From: Henriciella sp.
GTDB taxonomy: Bacteria; Pseudomonadota; Alphaproteobacteria; Caulobacterales; Hyphomonadaceae
Length of the DNA stretch: 64,000 nt
Direction: 5' to 3'
Assembly (NCBI GenBank): GCA_041984335.1
Contig: JBHIYI010000008.1
Span: forward strand, 46,297-110,296
The notes below the pieces were generated by a model. That model made no database searches. It worked only from the letters and a program-made list of their open reading frames with translations, and was not told the DNA's origin. Of the stretch, positions 1,611-8,095 are shown piece after piece (the stretch's first letter is position 1; each line of letters begins with the position of its first letter). The translations under genes were made by a program, and so were the position numbers.

Positions 1611-2453
1611 TCAGGCCTTCAACACTGCGGCGTGATGCGCCACGTGATCCTCGATGAAGCTGGCGATGAAATAATAGGAATGATCATAGCCCGTTTGCAC
1701 GCGATGGGTCACGCGCTGACCGTGATTGGCGGCCTCTTCCAGAAACAGAGCCGGATCCAGTTGCTCGGCGAGAAATTGATCCGCATCGCCCTGATCGATC
1801 AGGATGTCTGCATCCGATGGCATCTCCTTGACGAGCTCGGTTGCGTCATAGGCTTCCCAGGCCACCGACAGCGGGCCGAGATATTGCTCGAACGCCTTTT
1901 GTCCCCAGGGCACGCGCGCCGGTGAGACAATGGGCGCGAATGCCGAGCAGGATTGATAAAGCGCCTGATTCTTCAGGTGCAGCGTGATCGCGCCATGCCC
2001 GCCCATGGAGTGGCCGGTAATGCCTTGGCGACTGAGATCCGCCTGCTTGAAGTGATCCGCAAACAGCCATTGCAGGTCGACGGTCACGTAGTCGTCCATC
2101 TTATAATGTCGATCCCAGGGCGCCTGCGTCGCTTTGAGGTAGAATCCCGCCCCTTGCCCGAGATCATAGCCCTCTGCGTCCGGCACCTCGTTGCCGCGCG
2201 GACTGGTATCCGGCGCCACCACCATCAGGCCATGTTCGGCGGCATATTTCTGGATCCCGGACTTTTCCATCACATTCGCCCAGGTACAGGTCAGGCCGGA
2301 CAAGTACCAGAGCACAGGCACCGGCCCATCCTTGGCTTGCGGCGGGGTGTAGACGCCAAACCGCATGGTGCAGTTGGTGACGCTGCTGAAATGGTCGTGG
2401 ACGGAAAGTGAACCGCCAAAATTGCGCCATTCAGAGACGGTTTCTAAGGACAT
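1611..2453 (-). CDS. fghA: S-formylglutathione hydrolase
   Basis: Motifs WYLSGLTCT, GQGAGFY, GHSMGGHGA (nucleophile elbow) and GYDHSYYFI. Start placed at MSLETVSE (2453) rather than the ORF-track 2474. Confidence 0.97.
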   Translation of the reverse strand: MSLETVSEWRNFGGSLSVHDHFSSVTNCTMRFGVYTPPQAKDGPVPVLWYLSGLTCTWANVMEKSGIQKYAAEHGLMVVAPDTSPRGNEVPDAEGYDLGQGAGFYLKATQAPWDRHYKMDDYVTVDLQWLFADHFKQADLSRQGITGHSMGGHGAITLHLKNQALYQSCSAFAPIVSPARVPWGQKAFEQYLGPLSVAWEAYDATELVKEMPSDADILIDQGDADQFLAEQLDPALFLEEAANHGQRVTHRVQTGYDHSYYFIASFIEDHVAHHAAVLKA

Positions 2454-2769
2454 CGCAGCTGGCCCTCCGTGCAATCGCTTGAGTCCGTAGCGCCATGCGG
2501 TGCGTTCACCCCATGTGCAAGCAAAATCTGATTGTCCCGTACAGTTCGCCCCCGAACGACACCCTCAATTCGGCGAACGTAAATTGGCGCAGCCTACAAA
2601 CGCTCGCGGTTCGCGATCAAAAGTCGAAATCGCAAACAGCACGCTTCGGACGGCAAGCCCCCTCAATGCCAAAGTATTCAAAAAGATAGTGAAATAATGA
2701 GACATCCCGACAATGCAAATAAGCAGGAATTGAATTTCATGTATTTTTTAATCGGTCATCGAGTATATT

Positions 2770-4458
2770 ATGTTTTTTCAAAGCTGTTCTGTCCTCTTCC
2801 TTGCTTTCCTGATATGTGTCGCATGCTCTGGCGGAGGCGGCGGTTCCGATACGCCACCGCTTGCGCCCACGCCGCCGCCTCCGGCGCTACCCGCCAACGT
2901 CGCCCCCGAACTCGTCATAGCGTCGGTCTCTTCGACTGTGGACGAGCGGCAAAGTCTGACCATAGATGCCAGTGCGTCCAGCGACGCAGACGGCGACAGT
3001 CTGAGTTTTGAGATTAGCGTTTCTGGCTCCAGCAATGTCCGCCTCGTCGACACAGATTCCGCGCCAGTCTGGACCATCGAAACGAATGAAGTTTCAGAAG
3101 ATGAAACGTTCTCGGTCACCGTTACCGTTTCGGCGGGTGAGCATGCCATTTCCGAAACGCTCGATTTCACGTTGTCGAATTATGATCGAGCGCCGCTCAG
3201 TGCGATGTGGGGCACTGAAACCACCCGTTTGGCTTTTGACGACTCTCAAAACATTGATTTTCGGGCCTTGAAACACGTTCCAGTTTCCCATGAAGCTTAC
3301 AGCCTGGTGACAGATGGAACCACGTCCGCAATCGAAATTATCAGGTCCGACGGTGATGCAGCCTACGCAGATCCGATACTGTCGCTGCCGAACTTTGCGC
3401 CTGCGCAAGACAAGCTTTTTTCCGCCGAACTCAATTTCCTCGTCGATACCGATTTCGTGCTACTTTCGCCCGAAACCGGACGCGTTCAAATTTTTCTTAG
3501 CGACCCGAATGATCACGATAAATTGTTAAATGCTGGGACGTTTGTCGTTCCGGGAGCTTGCACGGTCGTTGAGGCGTATGTTGGAGATTATGACGATACA
3601 TTGACAGGCGGAAACTTCGCTTTCGGAAGTCTATGGCCAGGTTTGCTCATTGGAACTGATACCAGTCTGACGGCGCTCATCAACAATGCCCAAATAGATC
3701 AACCTCAGGGTACCGCCGGATCACCTAGACCGGCTCTCGATCGCATCGGTACGTTTTCAGAATCTCGGCTGATTTCGATGAATGGCAATTTTTGCCATCT
3801 TCAAAGAAATCCTGCTCCAACGCGGGAGAACCCCGCTCAGCATGAAATCTTCGATCCAGTAAGAAGTGAAATTGTTCAGATTCTCAGCACGCGCGGTGAT
3901 GAAGCGATCTTTGGAAAGTCAATCCCGATCTCAAGTCCAGAAGGCATGGAACTCATTGATATTAAATCAGGTGCCAACATGGACCTTTCGACTCTACGTT
4001 TCCTGCTTTTTTCCAGCGGCGAACACGACAAAGGGCACCAACTAACCATTATTCACGAGGATAAGAACGGATCCATCGAGCAGCGAGATGTTCCGCTTCC
4101 CAACGGGGTTCCCACGCAGTTGTATACGAACAGCATTGACCTTTGGCCCGACGAGAACCAGCCACCGACCGTCAGCCAAGATTACGATTCTGATATCATT
4201 ATCACGGCCCCGGAAACGCCGTATATCTATGTGCTCGAAAACTTGTCGTCACCGACTGAACCGTTTTGTTTCGGTGAAATCACATATTTTGAAGTCGGCT
4301 ACGGCGTAAACGAGGTTGAACAAATTATACCCTTTCTCACCGACTCTCCCCGTCAACTGATCACGAATGATGGACAAACGCTACGTTTCTATTCGAGTAC
4401 CGAGCAGGATGATCGCGTTCCGCCAACCGGCGGAGGCATACCTCCGGATCGTTGCTAA
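2770..4458 (+). CDS. Orphan secreted lipoprotein: Gly/Pro linker, Ig/PKD-like N-terminal module, unknown C-terminal region
   Basis: 562 aa ORF. Hydrophobic N-terminus with a lipobox-like VAC, then SGGGGGS and TPPPPP. NVAP...SDADGDSLSF is typical of Ig/cadherin-like repeats. AT-rich upstream region. Confidence 0.7.
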   Translation: MFFQSCSVLFLAFLICVACSGGGGGSDTPPLAPTPPPPALPANVAPELVIASVSSTVDERQSLTIDASASSDADGDSLSFEISVSGSSNVRLVDTDSAPVWTIETNEVSEDETFSVTVTVSAGEHAISETLDFTLSNYDRAPLSAMWGTETTRLAFDDSQNIDFRALKHVPVSHEAYSLVTDGTTSAIEIIRSDGDAAYADPILSLPNFAPAQDKLFSAELNFLVDTDFVLLSPETGRVQIFLSDPNDHDKLLNAGTFVVPGACTVVEAYVGDYDDTLTGGNFAFGSLWPGLLIGTDTSLTALINNAQIDQPQGTAGSPRPALDRIGTFSESRLISMNGNFCHLQRNPAPTRENPAQHEIFDPVRSEIVQILSTRGDEAIFGKSIPISSPEGMELIDIKSGANMDLSTLRFLLFSSGEHDKGHQLTIIHEDKNGSIEQRDVPLPNGVPTQLYTNSIDLWPDENQPPTVSQDYDSDIIITAPETPYIYVLENLSSPTEPFCFGEITYFEVGYGVNEVEQIIPFLTDSPRQLITNDGQTLRFYSSTEQDDRVPPTGGGIPPDRC

Positions 4459-4460
4459 CT

Positions 4461-4838
4461 CTAACCGCGGTGCAGCGCGCAGAGCTTGTTGCCGTCCGGA
4501 TCTCGGAGGTAAGCGAGATACATCCGGCCGGAGGGCTGCTCGCGCCAGCCTGGAGGGTCTTCATCTGTCGTCCCGCCCGCGGCGACACCTGCGGCGTGCC
4601 ACGCATCTGCCTGCTCGGGATTGTCCATCGCAAACCCGATCGTCCCGCCATTTGCGAAGGTCGCTGGCTTGCCATTGATCGGCTTGGTGACCATGAACAC
4701 GCCGCCATTGTGGAGATAGATCAAGCGCCCTTTCGGATCGGTAATCCCGGGCTTGCCGCCGAGCGCTGTGAAAGTGGCATCATAGAACGCCTTGGCTTTG
4801 TCGAGATCGTCCGACCCGACCATCATGTGTGAGTACAT
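4461..4838 (-). CDS. VOC/glyoxalase family protein
   Basis: MYSHMMVGSDDLDKAKAFYDA and YLAYLRDPDGNKLCA are VOC motifs. RBS AAGGA upstream. Confidence 0.92.
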   Translation of the reverse strand: MYSHMMVGSDDLDKAKAFYDATFTALGGKPGITDPKGRLIYLHNGGVFMVTKPINGKPATFANGGTIGFAMDNPEQADAWHAAGVAAGGTTDEDPPGWREQPSGRMYLAYLRDPDGNKLCALHRG

Positions 4839-4898
4839 TTAGTTTCCTTTGTTCTAGTTTCCGTTGTCTTCGGTGGAACTACTAGCGTGGACTACAAT

Positions 4899-5741
4899 CT
4901 AGGGCCGATGCTTGGTTTGCGACATTGGTAGAAGAAACTCATACAAAATCCAACGACCTTGAAAGTACAAGGACTCGAGCTTCTTGTCTCTCGTCAAAAG
5001 TCCATCAAAATACGTTGCATAGGTAGCAAACATCAGATCGACGATATCATTTCTAATTCGATCTGCTCCAATTTTCGGGGCGCTGCCACTTTCTATCCAA
5101 TCCAAAAAGTGTAGCCCTTGAAACAGCGCAAATCGATAGATCAACGTGTTGGGCCATTCCGCTTCGGTAGGCCAGTTTCGAGTATCAGGGTGTTGCTCGT
5201 GAAGCGAGCCGGCCATCATGGAAACCATAGCCAAAAATTTCTTCAATGTATCCAAATCAAATTCGCGACCCTGTCGAATTCTTTTTATCTGAGCCTGAGA
5301 AAATTGAGATTGAAACTGCGAATAATCTTCCATCAAATCGGCGGTGTTTCTAGACATCTGAGATAGGTGACCTTGAGCATCATTTCTTTTTTGCTCAACG
5401 TCGGCTCGAAACCGTTCATCGCCGGATGCAAACCTCGCAACGTTCGCGCAAAAACCGACGAATTCCCTCGACTGACGCTGGTCTACAAGCCGACTTGACA
5501 ACCCCGCGCGCCGTCCGCGCAATTGAGCAACAATTTTAGTAGATTTCAGGATTAGAACTTGTGAGGGGTATCTGCAGATCACGGAAACACTATCAAAAAT
5601 CGCACGATCCGACTTTGCCTTGTGCATTTCCATGCCGGCATAGTCCGTCAGCACCACAAAGTTTTGTGGGTTTTTTGATAGAAATCGGCCCAACTCTGAA
5701 GAATTGATTTCGTTGGTATCGACAACCAGTTTTCGCGACAC
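4899..5741 (-). CDS. Hypothetical protein with PIN-domain-like acidic motifs
   Basis: Probable GTG start at 5741 gives MSRKLVVDTN. Motifs VVDTN, TDYAGME and RNDIVD...DGLLTRDKKL. AT-richer than neighbours. Confidence 0.6.
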   Translation of the reverse strand: MSRKLVVDTNEINSSELGRFLSKNPQNFVVLTDYAGMEMHKAKSDRAIFDSVSVICRYPSQVLILKSTKIVAQLRGRRAGLSSRLVDQRQSREFVGFCANVARFASGDERFRADVEQKRNDAQGHLSQMSRNTADLMEDYSQFQSQFSQAQIKRIRQGREFDLDTLKKFLAMVSMMAGSLHEQHPDTRNWPTEAEWPNTLIYRFALFQGLHFLDWIESGSAPKIGADRIRNDIVDLMFATYATYFDGLLTRDKKLESLYFQGRWILYEFLLPMSQTKHRP

Positions 5742-5742
5742 A

Positions 5743-6852
5743 CTAATAAACCACCACGCTTCTGATGCTCTTGCCTTCATGCATCAGGTCGAAGGCCTTG
5801 TTGATGTCTTCTAGGCCCATGACGTGGGTGATCATCGGGTCGATCTGGATCTTCTGGTTCATATACCAGTCGACAATCTTGGGCACATCGGTGCGCCCTT
5901 TCGCGCCGCCGAATGCTGTGCCTTTCCAGGTCCGGCCGGTGACCAGCTGGAATGGCCGGGTCGAGATTTCCTTGCCCGCTTCGGCGACGCCGATGATCAC
6001 GCTCGTGCCCCAGCCGCGATGGCAGCATTCAAGTGCGTCGCGCATCACATCCGTATTGCCGGTGCAGTCAAAGGAATAGTCCGCGCCGCCATCGGTCAGC
6101 TCGACCAGATGATCGACCAGTGAGCCTTTGACGTCGCGCGGATTGACGAAATGGGTCATGCCGAATTTCTTGCCCCACTCTTCCTTGTCAGGATTGACGT
6201 CGACCCCGACAATCTTGTCTGCACCGACCATTTTCGCGCCCTGGATCACGTTGAGGCCGATACCGCCGAGGCCGAACACGACGACATTGTCGCCCGCCTG
6301 GACCTTGGCCGTGTTGGTCACAGCGCCGACACCGGTTGTCACGCCGCACCCAACATAGCAGGCTTTGTCAAAGGGCGCGTCCTCCCGGACCTTGGCGACG
6401 GCAATTTCCGGCAGCACGGTGAAGTTGGAGAAGGTTGAGCAGCCCATATAGTGATAGATGGTCTGACCTTTATAGGAGAAGCGCGACGTCCCATCCGGCA
6501 TCAGGCCTTTGCCCTGCGTCGCGCGGATCGAGGTGCAGAGATTGGTCTTGCCAGACAGACAGGCTTTGCACTGGCGGCATTCAGGGATGTAGAGCGGGAT
6601 GACATGATCGCCGGGCTGCACACTGGTCACGCCGGCCCCGACTTCGCGCACAATGCCTGCGCCTTCATGGCCAAGAATGCTCGGAAACACGCCCTCGCTG
6701 TCAAACCCGTCCAGCGTGTAGGCATCGGTGTGGCAGATGCCGGTCGCCATGATCTCGACCAGGACCTCGCCCGCCTTCGGGCCTTCCAGATCGAGCTCAA
6801 CAATCTCCAGAGGTTTCTTGGCCTCGAAGGCCACAGCTGCGCGTGTTTTCAT
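5743..6852 (-). CDS. frmA: S-(hydroxymethyl)glutathione dehydrogenase / class III alcohol dehydrogenase (GSNO reductase)
   Basis: [18 protein letters not shown], structural Zn site CRQCKAC...C, GLGGIG and C-terminal GKSIRSVV. Confidence 0.98.
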
Positions 6853-6919
6853 TCACCTGCTCCTAAATGCATTTCACGCGCAATAAGCGCGCTTGCAGCA
6901 AGAAGCTCAACCCCCATTC

Positions 6920-6949
6920 TTGTCTCTGGTTGTCTTTGGCTTGTCTTTG
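6920..6949. repeat. Three phased direct repeats TTGTCT(C/T)TG
   Basis: TTGTCTCTG at 6920, TTGTCTTTG at 6930 and TTGTCTTTG at 6941 (periods 10 and 11 bp), between the desulfurase stop and the frmA start. Confidence 0.75.
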
Positions 6950-6955
6950 TCGCTC

Positions 6956-8095
6956 TCAGGCAAACGTACCGAGCGCCCGCCGGGCAGCGGTGAGCCAGGC
7001 CTCGGCAACCGCGTCAAAGTCTTCTGGCTGGCTGTCCCAGCCGAAACTGACACGAATGGCGCTGTCGGAGAGTTCATCCGGCACGCCCATCGCGCCAAGC
7101 ACGAGCGAGCGTTTCACCTTGCCGCTCGAACAGGCGGATCCAGACGACACGGCCACGCCTGCGAGGTCCATGGCCATGACCTGCGTTTCAGCGCGGAAGC
7201 CTGCAATCGCGAAATTTGAGGTTTGCGGCAGGCGCTCCGCATCTGCCCCGAAGATCGTGACGCCCGCCTCTTCGCGCAGGCGCGCTTCCATTTTATCCCG
7301 CAGCGGCGCGAGCGCTTGCAGCTTCGTCATGTCCCGGATCGCAGCTTCTGTGGCGGCGCCGAAGCCCGCAATGCCGCTCAGATTCTCTGTCCCCGATCGC
7401 AGCGAGCGCTCCTGGCCGCCGCCGAACAGGACCGGCTTCAACGGCGCACCTGAGCGCACCCATAGCGCGCCGACGCCCTGCGGCCCGCCAACCTTGTGAG
7501 CCGAAAGCGCCAGGTAGTCGACGCCAAGCAGGTTCACGTTGACCAAGATCTTGCCGAGACCCTGTACCGCGTCGCAATGGGTGAGGCCGCCGGCTTCGCG
7601 CACCAGGGTCGCGGCTTCGGCGACCGGCTGGATAACGCCCGTCTCATTATTCGCCATCATCAACGCGAGTATCGGAACGCCGTCGCGGTCCGTGTCCCAG
7701 CGCGCCAGCCGGTCACGCAGCCAGTCCAGATCCAGCGCGCCACTGCCTGTCACATAGGCCGTTTCCATCGGCACACCGGCATAGCCAGCATTTTTCAAAA
7801 CGGCCTCATGCTCAATCGCCGAGACGAGGAGCGTGCATTTGCCGTCCAATTGGGCGACCACGCCGTTCAGGGCGAGCGCGTTGGCTTCGGTACCGCCGCT
7901 GGTGAATATGATATCCTGCGCCCGCGCCCCAATGGCGAGCGAGACCTGAGCGCGCGCTGTCTCAAGCAGCTTGCGCGCCGCCCGCCCGGGTCCATGCACG
8001 CTGGACGGGTTTGCTCCGACGTCCAGAGCGGCCAGCATCGCCGTTTTCGCCTCCGGCCGAACCGGCGCCGTTGCATTATAGTCTGCGTAGATCAT
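6956..8095 (-). CDS. iscS: Cysteine desulfurase (IscS/NifS-like, group I)
   Basis: YADYNATAP, NPSSVH, NNETG, SAHKVGGPQG (PLP Lys) and SSGSACSSG (catalytic Cys loop). Confidence 0.93.
   Translation of the reverse strand: MIYADYNATAPVRPEAKTAMLAALDVGANPSSVHGPGRAARKLLETARAQVSLAIGARAQDIIFTSGGTEANALALNGVVAQLDGKCTLLVSAIEHEAVLKNAGYAGVPMETAYVTGSGALDLDWLRDRLARWDTDRDGVPILALMMANNETGVIQPVAEAATLVREAGGLTHCDAVQGLGKILVNVNLLGVDYLALSAHKVGGPQGVGALWVRSGAPLKPVLFGGGQERSLRSGTENLSGIAGFGAATEAAIRDMTKLQALAPLRDKMEARLREEAGVTIFGADAERLPQTSNFAIAGFRAETQVMAMDLAGVAVSSGSACSSGKVKRSLVLGAMGVPDELSDSAIRVSFGWDSQPEDFDAVAEAWLTAARRALGTFA

What the first reader, a model, noticed from the sequence alone, without database searches (positions are those of the whole stretch)
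4899..5741. Standalone PIN-fold-like gene apparently translationally coupled to frmA
Seen: GTG starts 1 nt after the frmA TAG, and GGTGG in the last frmA codons can act as its SD. The protein has the PIN acidic pattern: VVDTN at the N-terminus, a downstream Glu (TDYAGME), and NDIVD...LLTRDKKL at the C-terminus, with a long insert (about 280 aa versus about 130 for VapC). It is locally AT-rich (21/60 GC at 5281-5340). There is no adjacent antitoxin-sized ORF. Inference: a foreign nuclease-like effector that uses the stress-inducible frmA promoter, for example an abortive-infection or defence RNase, or an RNA-damage processing enzyme. This is my top candidate for an undescribed system.
Basis: partly seen in the sequence, partly recalled or inferred. 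Interest (0 to 1): 0.72.

Follow-up and report, generated by a model that had tools for sequence, protein, structure and literature searches.

The report
Mobile solo PIN-like nuclease behind frmA
The gene right after the formaldehyde-detoxifying gene frmA is a horizontally acquired member of a large, unnamed protein family: a PIN-type nuclease core split by a 139-residue helical domain of unknown fold, which moves between genomes as a single promoterless gene and here probably depends on frmA for its expression.

Summary
On the minus strand, a 280-codon ORF (4899-5741) starts with GTG one base after the frmA stop. It is AT-rich and has no room for an antitoxin gene.

The PIN reading is supported. 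An AlphaFold2 model (pLDDT 95) gives PIN domains as its only credible fold matches. With the insert removed, a profile comparison puts D8, E38, D235 and D252 in register with VapC. Seven acidic positions are conserved in at least 126 of 133 relatives. Sequence-level support is weak: there are no Pfam, NCBIfam, PADLOC, PHROG or PDB hits.

New findings:
- The family is large (877 clusters at 50% identity) and has no conserved neighbour.
- Close copies in different contigs share only the ORF plus less than about 125 nt. At least five copies are integron cassettes bracketed by attC sites.
- It was not found in over 30 other species of the genus, where frmA abuts the VOC (glyoxalase-type) gene, and occurs in 3 of 401 genomes of the order.
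- The window copy belongs to a five-member clade (SH-aLRT 99.7). In all five the gene sits 0-2 nt after frmA with a GTG or TTG start.

A defence or toxin role is plausible but untested, and no RNA data exist. The scan had noted this gene only on this same window.

The parts
4899..5741 (-). Solo PIN-like nuclease gene: 280 aa, GTG start at 5741-5739, TAG stop at 4901-4899
   Evidence: ORF and translation. Family of 877 cluster representatives. AlphaFold2 model with pLDDT 95.3 and pTM 0.92.
5493..5741 (-). N-terminal half of the PIN core (aa 1-83). It holds strands S1-S3 and the conserved residues D8, N10, D33, E38, Q61 and T68.
   Evidence: Secondary structure of the model. hhalign register with a VapC profile. 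Conservation: D8 132/133, D33 126/133, E38 133/133. Foldseek match to the SMG6 PIN domain, probability 0.98 over 76 columns.
5076..5492 (-). Family-specific all-helical insert (aa 84-222) between S3 and the crossover helix. Its length is 137-144 aa in all 89 aligned relatives. It carries the conserved residues F94, R156, H184-P185 and R203.
   Evidence: Insert lengths. Insert-only model with pLDDT 93.5. No credible structural match in the PDB, all E>1 and probability<0.25. Conservation.
4902..5075 (-). C-terminal half of the PIN core (aa 223-280). It holds the crossover helix with N231-D232-x-x-D235, then T243, D246, strand S4, T250-x-D252 and a final helix.
   Evidence: hhalign register. Conservation: D232 127/133, D235 132/133, D246 131/133, D252 129/133.
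5742..5755 (-). Junction between frmA and the gene: GGTGG (5751-5755), frmA stop TAG (5743-5745) and one spacer base (5742) before the GTG.
   Evidence: The same 0-2 nt stop/start geometry with GTG or TTG starts occurs in L203, L093, L094/L201 and L016.
5743..6852 (-). frmA-like class III alcohol dehydrogenase (S-(hydroxymethyl)glutathione dehydrogenase type), the upstream gene of the operon.
   Evidence: Pfam ADH_N 5e-21 and ADH_zinc_N 1e-29. 77-87% nucleotide identity over the full gene in most of the genus species that match.
4839..4898 (-). 60-nt spacer after the gene. It ends in the AAAGGAAAC ribosome-binding stretch of the VOC gene. It has no attC site and no stable hairpin.
   Evidence: Fold z-score 0.06. 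No terminator-like or promoter-like site on the minus strand in 4300-7200. The spacer resembles the native frmA-VOC spacer of relatives. My attC scan finds none there.
4461..4838 (-). VOC/glyoxalase-family gene. In most relatives it follows frmA directly.
   Evidence: Pfam Glyoxalase 3.8e-07. In G009, G008, G023, G041, G022 and others the frmA-VOC gap is only 12-100 bp.

Best explanation
[quoted passage not shown] Its core is interrupted, between strand S3 and the crossover helix, by a conserved 139-residue helical domain of unknown fold. It belongs to a large unnamed family that behaves as a self-contained, promoterless, single-ORF mobile gene. Copies occur as integron cassettes, in prophages and genomic islands, and wedged behind unrelated host genes.

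In this genome, or a recent ancestor, a copy from an frmA-linked sub-clade was acquired horizontally and sits between frmA and the VOC gene. It has no detectable promoter of its own. It is most likely transcribed with frmA and translated at a low level by termination-reinitiation from a weak GTG start.

Shown here: the fold assignment, the conserved acidic set, the solo status, the foreign origin, the ORF-sized unit of transfer and the frmA-linked clade.

Inferred: nuclease activity, co-transcription and translational coupling, and the biological role. For the role I favour a conflict function, about 35% on its own: a single-gene anti-phage or toxin-like nuclease whose helical insert gates or targets the active site. 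I do not favour a role in formaldehyde metabolism.
For: Fold:
- AlphaFold2 model with pLDDT 95.3 and pTM 0.92.
- The only Foldseek PDB hits with high probability are PIN domains: SMG6 at 0.98, then SMG5 and 3i8o.
- The top viral-library hit is a PIN protein.
- An ESM Atlas structure search, run through a near relative's model, returns only PIN clusters after the protein's own family. VapC scores TM 0.65 over 122 aligned residues of a 133-aa target.
- hhalign of the core without the insert aligns 108 columns to a VapC profile, with D8, E38, D235 and T250-x-D252 in register.

Active site: D8, D33, E38, D232, D235, D246 and D252 are each conserved in 126-133 of 133 relatives. This fits the positions given for PIN-like domains in PMC5499597.

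Solo status: there is no conserved neighbour in 73 genomic loci.

Mobility:
- Pairs of copies with about 80-100% nucleotide identity share only the ORF plus less than about 125 nt.
- L144/L145, L099, L131, L025 and L028 carry R''/R' attC sites at the ORF borders. In L144/L145 the homology ends exactly at G|TT.
- Four viral contigs carry the gene. Some copies lie in islands with recombinases.

Foreign origin here: G+C and GC3 are low. None of the other species searched in the genus has it, 3 of 401 genomes in the order do, and relatives have empty frmA-VOC sites.

frmA clade: the window, L203, L093, L094/L201 and L016/L179 form one clade with SH-aLRT 99.7. All five have a stop/start gap of 0-2 nt and a GTG or TTG start.

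Signals: no promoter-like or terminator-like site lies on the minus strand between frmA and the VOC gene.
Against: - No sequence library recognises a PIN domain. The hhalign probability is only 11% with E 2.8e-3, and Foldseek E-values are 0.4 or worse.
- The predicted sheet has four strands, not the canonical five.
- I could not inspect the model's coordinates, so I could not test whether the acidic residues cluster in space or where the insert sits relative to them.
- There is no expression evidence at all.
- The window copy has no attC, and the genome has no integron integrase. How this copy was inserted is therefore unknown.
- There is no PADLOC hit, and many neighbours in other genomes are housekeeping genes.
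- A solo active VapC-like RNase without an antitoxin should be toxic unless it is regulated. That regulation is assumed, not shown.
Confidence: 0.6

Rival explanations
1. The nuclease is a working part of the formaldehyde/GSNO stress response. For example, it might process RNA or DNA damaged or cross-linked by formaldehyde, and is therefore kept translationally coupled to frmA.
For: Five members, diverged to 34-56% identity, all sit 0-2 nt after frmA, and they form one clade. In two of them, L094/L201 and L016, the gene lies between frmA and fghA; in L094/L201 its stop overlaps the fghA start (ATGA). All catalytic residues are kept in the five.
Against: The other 128 sequences in the tree have no frmA neighbour. 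Other tightly coupled upstream genes are unrelated to each other: rpiA, ChaC-like, an esterase, LysR, AbiTii and Abi_alpha. Every other genus member searched lacks the gene, and most of them keep frmA directly followed by the VOC gene. The link has a single origin, so it counts as one event. The literature search found no link between PIN domains and frmA.
Confidence: 0.12
2. The gene is a selfish nuclease that promotes its own spread or retention, in a homing-like or addiction-like way. That would explain ORF-sized insertions in intergenic gaps between conserved genes.
For: The homology between copies is limited to the ORF, also in pairs without a recognisable attC: L134/L151, L030/L151, L061/L064 and L041/L167. 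The distribution is sporadic. G+C is lower than the flanks in 102 of 106 loci. The insertion in the window adds almost no extra DNA.
Against: From my own knowledge, no PIN-like homing endonuclease is known. Several copies are ordinary integron cassettes, whose mobility comes from IntI and not from the cargo. No target-site signature was found at the window junctions.
Confidence: 0.1
3. The window copy is an inert passenger: an untranslated or decaying remnant of a transferred gene with no current function.
For: The start codon is weak (GTG), there is no strong Shine-Dalgarno site, and no RNA evidence exists. The public gene caller chose a truncated ORF.
Against: The reading frame is intact at 280 codons, and every family-invariant residue is kept. 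The model is very confident. The frmA-linked clade has kept the ORF intact across deep divergence.
Confidence: 0.08
4. The protein is not a PIN-type nuclease. It has a Rossmann-like alpha/beta fold with another activity, such as nucleotide binding or phosphatase activity, and the PIN matches are only fold-level resemblance.
For: All sequence and structure statistics against known PIN domains are weak. Methyltransferase and dehydratase Rossmann folds also appear among low-probability Foldseek hits.
Against: The acidic residues fall at exactly the four topological positions that define PIN-like active sites, and they are the most conserved residues in the family. The C-terminal motif ND-x-x-D...T-x-D matches the VapC pattern. 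After the protein's own family, all ESM Atlas structure neighbours are PIN clusters.
Confidence: 0.1

Closest known systems
[quoted passage not shown]
   Same: The strand and helix order is the same around the active site. Asp follows S1 (VVDxN), Glu lies in the helix after S2, the motif (N)D-x-x-D lies at the start of the crossover helix, and T-x-D follows S4.
   Different: There is no PF01850 hit. The protein is 280 aa, not about 130. A conserved 139-aa helical domain is inserted after S3. An extra conserved Asp follows S2 (D33, a FEN-like feature), and D246 is also conserved. No fifth strand is predicted. There is no VapB-type antitoxin gene, here or in other loci.
SMG6/SMG5 (EST1A) PIN domains and PIN_4/PhoH-PIN proteins
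   Same: These are the best structural matches to the N-terminal half of the core: Foldseek probability 0.8-0.98, rmsd 3.2-5 A over 76-81 columns. PIN_4 clusters also appear in the ESM Atlas structure list.
   Different: Only about 76-80 residues align. Identity is 16-18% and E-values are at least 0.4. These are eukaryotic nonsense-mediated-decay proteins with other domain contexts.
Integron gene cassettes of unknown function, some of which encode compact phage-defence genes (bioRxiv 10.1101/2024.07.02.601719 and 10.64898/2026.03.17.712381); genome insertion of cassettes at attG sites and SALINs (bioRxiv 10.1101/2022.09.11.507474)
   Same: The family's unit of transfer is a promoterless ORF with a 5' leader of a few bases. 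At least five relatives are bracketed by attC sites. The window copy is expressed, if at all, from a resident promoter, as described for cassettes inserted in genomes.
   Different: The window copy has no attC, and its genome has no integron integrase. Neither defence paper mentions a PIN protein.
Fused or single-chain toxin-antitoxin defence proteins (for example CapRel-type; recalled from my own knowledge, not tested)
   Same: A potentially toxic enzyme core is combined in one chain with an extra conserved domain, without a separate antitoxin.
   Different: This is purely an analogy. The fold and chemistry differ, and there is no evidence here that the insert inhibits or senses anything.

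Membership tests
PIN domain-like superfamily (definition in PMC5499597) | Rossmann-like alpha/beta/alpha core whose superimposable elements are S1, S2, the crossover helix H4 and S4 (the full core has five strands and five helices) | tested here: met
   The model has strands at 4-7, 28-31, 62-65 and 247-249 and a crossover helix at 226-242. PIN domains are the only high-probability fold matches. Caveat: no fifth strand is predicted, and Foldseek E-values are weak.
PIN domain-like superfamily (definition in PMC5499597) | [quoted passage not shown] | tested here: met
   D8 132/133, D235 132/133 (with D232 127/133), D252 129/133. Fourth positions: D33 126/133 and E38 133/133. The positions are in register with a VapC profile.
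PIN domain-like superfamily (definition in PMC5499597) | Acidic residues clustered in one metal-binding pocket; metal-dependent nuclease activity | not testable with these tools
Pfam PIN clan families (PF01850, PIN_3, PIN_4 and others) | A significant match to a curated family profile | tested here: not met
   None of the 89 family members has a PIN-clan hit at E<=1. NCBIfam gives none either. hhalign against a VapC profile gives probability 11% and E 2.8e-3.
VapBC type II toxin-antitoxin module | An adjacent, co-transcribed small antitoxin gene (VapB) upstream of the toxin | tested here: not met
   The flanks here are 1 nt and 60 nt. There is no conserved neighbour in 73 loci. The tightly coupled upstream ORFs are unrelated to one another.
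Integron gene cassette | An attC recombination site (R'' RYYYAAC ... R' GTTRRRY, an imperfect palindrome) at the 3' end of a promoterless ORF | tested here: not met
   Window copy: no attC in 4839-4898 and no AAC...GTT pair. Relatives L144/L145, L099, L131, L025 and L028 do meet it, with attC on both sides of the ORF. My detector is crude, with a background of about one hit per 11 kb per strand.
Integron gene cassette | An integron integrase or a cassette array in the same genome | tested here: not met
   TIGR02249 finds only generic tyrosine recombinases in G000, all far below the cut-off of 265 bits (best 73.9 bits).
Known anti-phage defence systems (PADLOC-DB v2.0.0) | A match to a model of a known or candidate defence protein | tested here: not met
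   0 families at E<=1. Some immediate neighbours in other genomes do match defence models, including DpdF, type II restriction-modification enzymes, BrxH and PsyrT.
Glutathione-dependent formaldehyde detoxification operon (frmA / fghA = frmB) | The gene after frmA is S-formylglutathione hydrolase (esterase D fold) | tested here: not met
   The protein has no esterase match. The real fghA is at 1611-2474 (-) (Pfam Esterase 1.3e-52).

The most novel reading that the evidence does not exclude
This is the founding example of a new single-gene conflict system. It would be a self-regulated PIN nuclease whose 139-residue helical insert, a fold with no known structural relative, acts as a built-in sensor or lid that frees the active site on phage infection or another trigger. 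It would spread as a minimal ORF-only cassette, through integron attC/attG routes and others. It could also be captured permanently by host operons, as behind frmA, where weak GTG/TTG reinitiation keeps its dose low.
Probability: 0.3. Interest if true: 0.78.

Novelty: new variant of a known kind. Interest (0 to 1): 0.58.

Why it matters
- The family is large: 877 clusters at 50% identity, from Proteobacteria to Planctomycetota, Verrucomicrobiota and Acidobacteriota. Yet it is absent from Pfam, NCBIfam, PADLOC and PHROGs and is annotated only as 'hypothetical protein'.
- It combines a recognisable catalytic core with a conserved domain of unknown fold and needs no partner gene. That makes it easy to test with one gene and a few point mutants.
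- Its ORF-sized mobility, including bona fide integron cassettes, adds a candidate to the pool of compact cassette-borne functions now being screened for phage defence.
- The frmA-linked clade shows a promoterless mobile gene becoming a stable passenger of a conserved stress operon. It also warns against reading operon position as evidence of function.
- Public annotation of this copy is truncated by 36 residues, which removes part of the active site.

Tried and rejected
- frmB/fghA identity. This was my first expectation for a roughly 280-aa gene after frmA. I rejected it: there is no esterase match, and fghA lies elsewhere in the window.
- Sequence searches of the protein and of the family profile against Pfam, NCBIfam, PADLOC, PHROGs and PDB sequences gave nothing meaningful.
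- A conserved partner or antitoxin. Clustering all ORFs within 4 kb in 73 genomic loci gave no neighbour family in more than 5 loci. The small upstream ORFs of 90-110 aa are unrelated to each other.
- Identity of the insert domain. A separate model was confident, but Foldseek against the PDB gave no credible match.
- An Rfam scan for an attC or other RNA family in 20 loci found only a group II intron in L064. I therefore wrote a crude attC detector. Its background is high, about one hit per 11 kb per strand, so I rely only on sites that bracket the ORF on both sides or coincide with homology breakpoints.
- attC, terminator or stable hairpin in the 60-nt spacer of the window: none.
- Expression. 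No RNA run holds the gene, and two small metatranscriptomes from the same study gave zero coverage, which proves nothing.
- Translational coupling as a general property of the family: rejected. Only about a fifth of loci have an upstream co-oriented open frame within 20 nt.
- A literature link between PIN domains and frmA or formaldehyde: none found.
Full report
**1. What is in the sequence**

The feature lies on the minus strand. A 280-codon ORF runs from GTG at 5741-5739 to TAG at 4901-4899.
- Directly upstream, and co-oriented, is a 369-aa class III alcohol dehydrogenase (5743-6852; Pfam ADH_N and ADH_zinc_N). Its TAG stop is one base from the GTG.
- Sixty bases downstream begins a 125-aa VOC/glyoxalase gene (4461-4838).
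- Further along the same strand are fghA (1611-2474, Esterase) and sufB, with a cysteine desulfurase upstream of frmA.
- The quoted motifs are present.
- The gene is AT-rich: 21/60 G+C at 5281-5340, gene G+C 0.461 against 0.595 and 0.616 for its neighbours, and GC3 0.48 against 0.76 and 0.75.
- The GGTGG at 5751-5755 is part of conserved frmA codons. Relatives without the gene have it too, so it is at best an incidental Shine-Dalgarno site.
- Contigs from public DNA runs bridge both junctions without differences.

**2. A real but unnamed family**

No Pfam, NCBIfam, PADLOC, PHROG or PDB-sequence match was found. An exhaustive phmmer search found 877 cluster representatives at E<=1e-3 and 166 at E<=1e-30.
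- Nearly all are 265-300 aa and are called 'hypothetical protein'.
- Relatives start M-R-K-V-V-D-x-N, which supports the GTG start. The public gene call for this locus (P0002, 244 aa) starts at Met37 and cuts off the first strand and two conserved Asp residues.
- Carriers include Alpha-, Beta-, Gamma- and Deltaproteobacteria, Planctomycetota, Verrucomicrobiota, Acidobacteriota and Omnitrophota, and one contig labelled archaeal.

**3. Fold and active site**

With an 89-sequence alignment, AlphaFold2 gives pLDDT 95.3 and pTM 0.92.
- Topology: strand 4-7, helix, strand 28-31, short helices, strand 62-65, then six long helices (88-217), helix 226-242, strand 247-249 and helix 253-276.
- In the PDB, the only matches with high Foldseek probability are PIN domains: SMG6 at 0.98 over 76 columns with rmsd 3.2 A, then SMG5 and 3i8o. 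The E-values are about 0.4, because the helical insert dominates the model. The top viral-library hit is also a PIN protein.
- The ESM Atlas structure search used a near relative's model. After the protein's own family it lists only PIN clusters: VapC at TM 0.65 over 122 aligned residues of a 133-aa target, plus PIN, PIN_4 and PhoH-PIN clusters.
- I built a VapC profile from 21 PF01850 proteins of related genomes. Profile-profile comparison aligns the N-terminal motifs. With insert columns 85-221 removed, it aligns 108 columns across the whole domain, with D8, E38, D235 and T250-x-D252 in register with the VapC invariants. The statistics are weak (E 2.8e-3, probability 11%).
- In 133 relatives, conservation is D8 132, D33 126, E38 133, D232 127, D235 132, D246 131 and D252 129. 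N10, Q61, T68, N231 and T243 are also conserved.
- These positions are the ones that define PIN-like active sites: Asp after S1, an acidic residue at the start of the crossover helix H4, an acidic residue after S4, and a fourth after S2 or in the following helix (PMC5499597).
[quoted passage not shown] It is not a member of any curated family.
- Differences from VapC: twice the length, an extra Asp after S2, no predicted fifth strand, and the insert.

**4. The insert**

The insert is 137-144 aa long in all 89 aligned relatives. It is all-helical. It carries near-invariant F94, R156, H184-P185 and R203. Modelled alone it is confident (pLDDT 93.5), but it has no credible structural relative in the PDB.

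**5. Solo and mobile**

- In 73 genomic loci, no neighbour family recurs in more than five loci.
- Immediate neighbours are a mix. Defence or mobile functions include SIR2, RES-Xre, ParE, HipA, Abi_alpha, AbiTii, BsuBI/PstI restriction enzymes, DpdF, helicases, resolvases and integrases. Housekeeping genes also occur.
- Four IMG/VR viral contigs carry the gene.
- The gene has lower G+C than its flanks in 102 of 106 loci, by 8.4 points on average.
- The most telling result concerns closely related copies in different contigs. They share homology only across the ORF and less than about 125 nt beyond it. Examples: L144/L145, 932 bp at 100%; L099/L103, 859 bp; L134/L151, 948 bp; L030/L151, 887 bp; L061/L064, 836 bp; L041/L167, 832 bp; L116/L119, 971 bp.
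- In L144/L145 the shared unit begins at GTTAGGC, 11 nt before the ATG. R'' (GCCTAAC) abuts the stop codon. The homology ends at ...ATCG|TT, the integron crossover point.
- L099, L131, L025 and L028 are likewise followed by attC sites. In L025 and L131 the gene is bracketed by near-identical attC copies.
- The family is therefore, among other things, integron cassette cargo. Cassettes of unknown function have recently been shown to encode compact phage-defence genes (bioRxiv 10.1101/2024.07.02.601719; 10.64898/2026.03.17.712381). Neither paper mentions a PIN protein.

**6. How it sits in this genome**

- The gene was not found in any other species searched in the genus. It occurs in 3 of 401 genomes sampled from the order.
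- Most relatives have frmA followed by the VOC gene after 12-100 bp. A few have other inserts at the same spot: 517 bp in G005, a 767-bp methyltransferase-like ORF in G004 and about 560 bp in G012.
- The window's insertion is almost exactly the ORF. The 60-nt spacer after it resembles the native frmA-VOC spacer, including the VOC ribosome-binding stretch.
- There is no attC, no stable hairpin, and no promoter-like or terminator-like site on the minus strand. The genome has no integron integrase.
- Insertion of cassettes at non-att genomic sites, with expression from resident promoters, has been demonstrated (bioRxiv 10.1101/2022.09.11.507474). Such insertions should retain an attC. The route is therefore only a possibility here. 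Import by homologous recombination through the conserved frmA and VOC flanks is an equally good alternative.

**7. An frmA-linked clade**

Screening about 165 family loci with the window's frmA, VOC and fghA proteins found four more distinct loci with frmA immediately upstream.
- L203 (P0122) and L093 (P0003): frmA, then the gene, then VOC. A TTG start overlaps the frmA TGA.
- L094 = L201 (P0124): frmA, then the gene, then fghA. GTG lies 2 nt after the frmA TAG, and the gene's stop overlaps the fghA start.
- L016 = L179 (a Robiginitomaculum metagenome-assembled genome): frmA, then the gene, then a ParE/Phd pair on the other strand, then fghA. TTG lies 2 nt after the frmA TAA.
- These five form one clade in a 133-sequence tree, with SH-aLRT 99.7.
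- They are only 34-56% identical to each other, while their frmA proteins are 71-87% identical to the window's.
- All five keep every catalytic residue. All five use a weak start codon, whereas 73% of family members start with ATG.
- The linkage thus has a single origin and has been kept through long divergence. The nuclease evolves much faster than its neighbours.

Because this is one event, and because other members sit just as tightly behind unrelated genes, I read the link as stable hitch-hiking on a well-expressed, inducible operon. I do not read it as a functional tie to formaldehyde. The latter stays open at about 12%.

**8. Mechanism proposed**

Shown:
- a PIN-like core with a complete, conserved acidic set;
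- a conserved insert of unknown fold;
- no partner gene;
- single-ORF mobility;
- foreign origin;
- stop/start juxtaposition with frmA.

Inferred:
- metal-dependent endonuclease activity, with RNA the more likely substrate by analogy with VapC and SMG6;
- transcription from the frmA promoter;
- low-level translation by termination-reinitiation at GTG;
- a conflict role (anti-phage or toxin-like) in which the insert targets or gates the nuclease.

No expression data could be obtained.

**9. Verdict**

The family is a new variant within the PIN-like superfamily. Its architecture and mobility have not been described in any source I could search. It is worth an experimental test.

Noticed in passing
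window 4899-5741 (-); protein P0002: The public gene call for this locus is a 244-aa product starting at the internal Met37. It lacks strand S1 and the conserved D8 and D33. Alignment with the family supports the GTG at 5741 as the start.
   Followed up: yes
L009 (G005) 2648-3165; L013 (G004) 2668-3430; G012:C5:700662-701223: The frmA-VOC intergenic gap is a variable spot in this genus. Other species carry unrelated inserts there: 517 bp in G005, a 767-bp ORF in G004 with a SAM-methyltransferase-like motif, and about 560 bp in G012.
   Followed up: partly
L016 6860-7533 (-): In the Robiginitomaculum metagenome-assembled genome, a ParE toxin / Phd-YefM antitoxin pair lies on the opposite strand between the PIN-like gene and fghA. 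This second small mobile module sits inside the same operon.
   Followed up: partly
L073 5225-5944, L138 99-818, L166 838-1557: In a Bradyrhizobium-type sub-lineage, a 240-aa protein precedes the family gene and overlaps its start by 1-4 nt. It has no Pfam match, is 66-77% identical among the three loci, and has only weak resemblance to PD-(D/E)xK nucleases in ESM Atlas (TM<0.4). It may be a lineage-specific partner.
   Followed up: partly
window 2770-4458 (+): A 562-aa ORF with weak Ig-like/PKD matches and lower G+C (0.48-0.52) lies antisense between the VOC gene and fghA. It is probably another acquired gene interrupting the frmA...fghA run.
   Followed up: no
L004 1910-2563 and 13989-14873: In a Pseudomonas genome the family gene lies in an island of about 11 kb. 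The island splits a comM-like Mg-chelatase gene and carries a large serine recombinase, a resolvase, an AAA_21 ATPase and a RelB/ParE pair next to it.
   Followed up: no
L064 10968-11086 (+): Rfam finds a group II intron D1-D4 element (RF01999, 114.7 bits) about 4 kb from the family gene in Paraburkholderia humisilvae.
   Followed up: no
window 5765-5770 (run X11, loose ends): In a seawater metagenome, other contigs match frmA up to about 5765-5770 and then continue with different sequence. These are co-occurring relatives whose frmA is followed by something other than this gene.
   Followed up: no
G000 and 12 genomes of the same genus: No canonical PIN/VapC (PF01850) match at E<=1e-8 was found in the window's genome or in the 12 other genus genomes searched. 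Sister families of the order carry 3-7 copies per genome.
   Followed up: no
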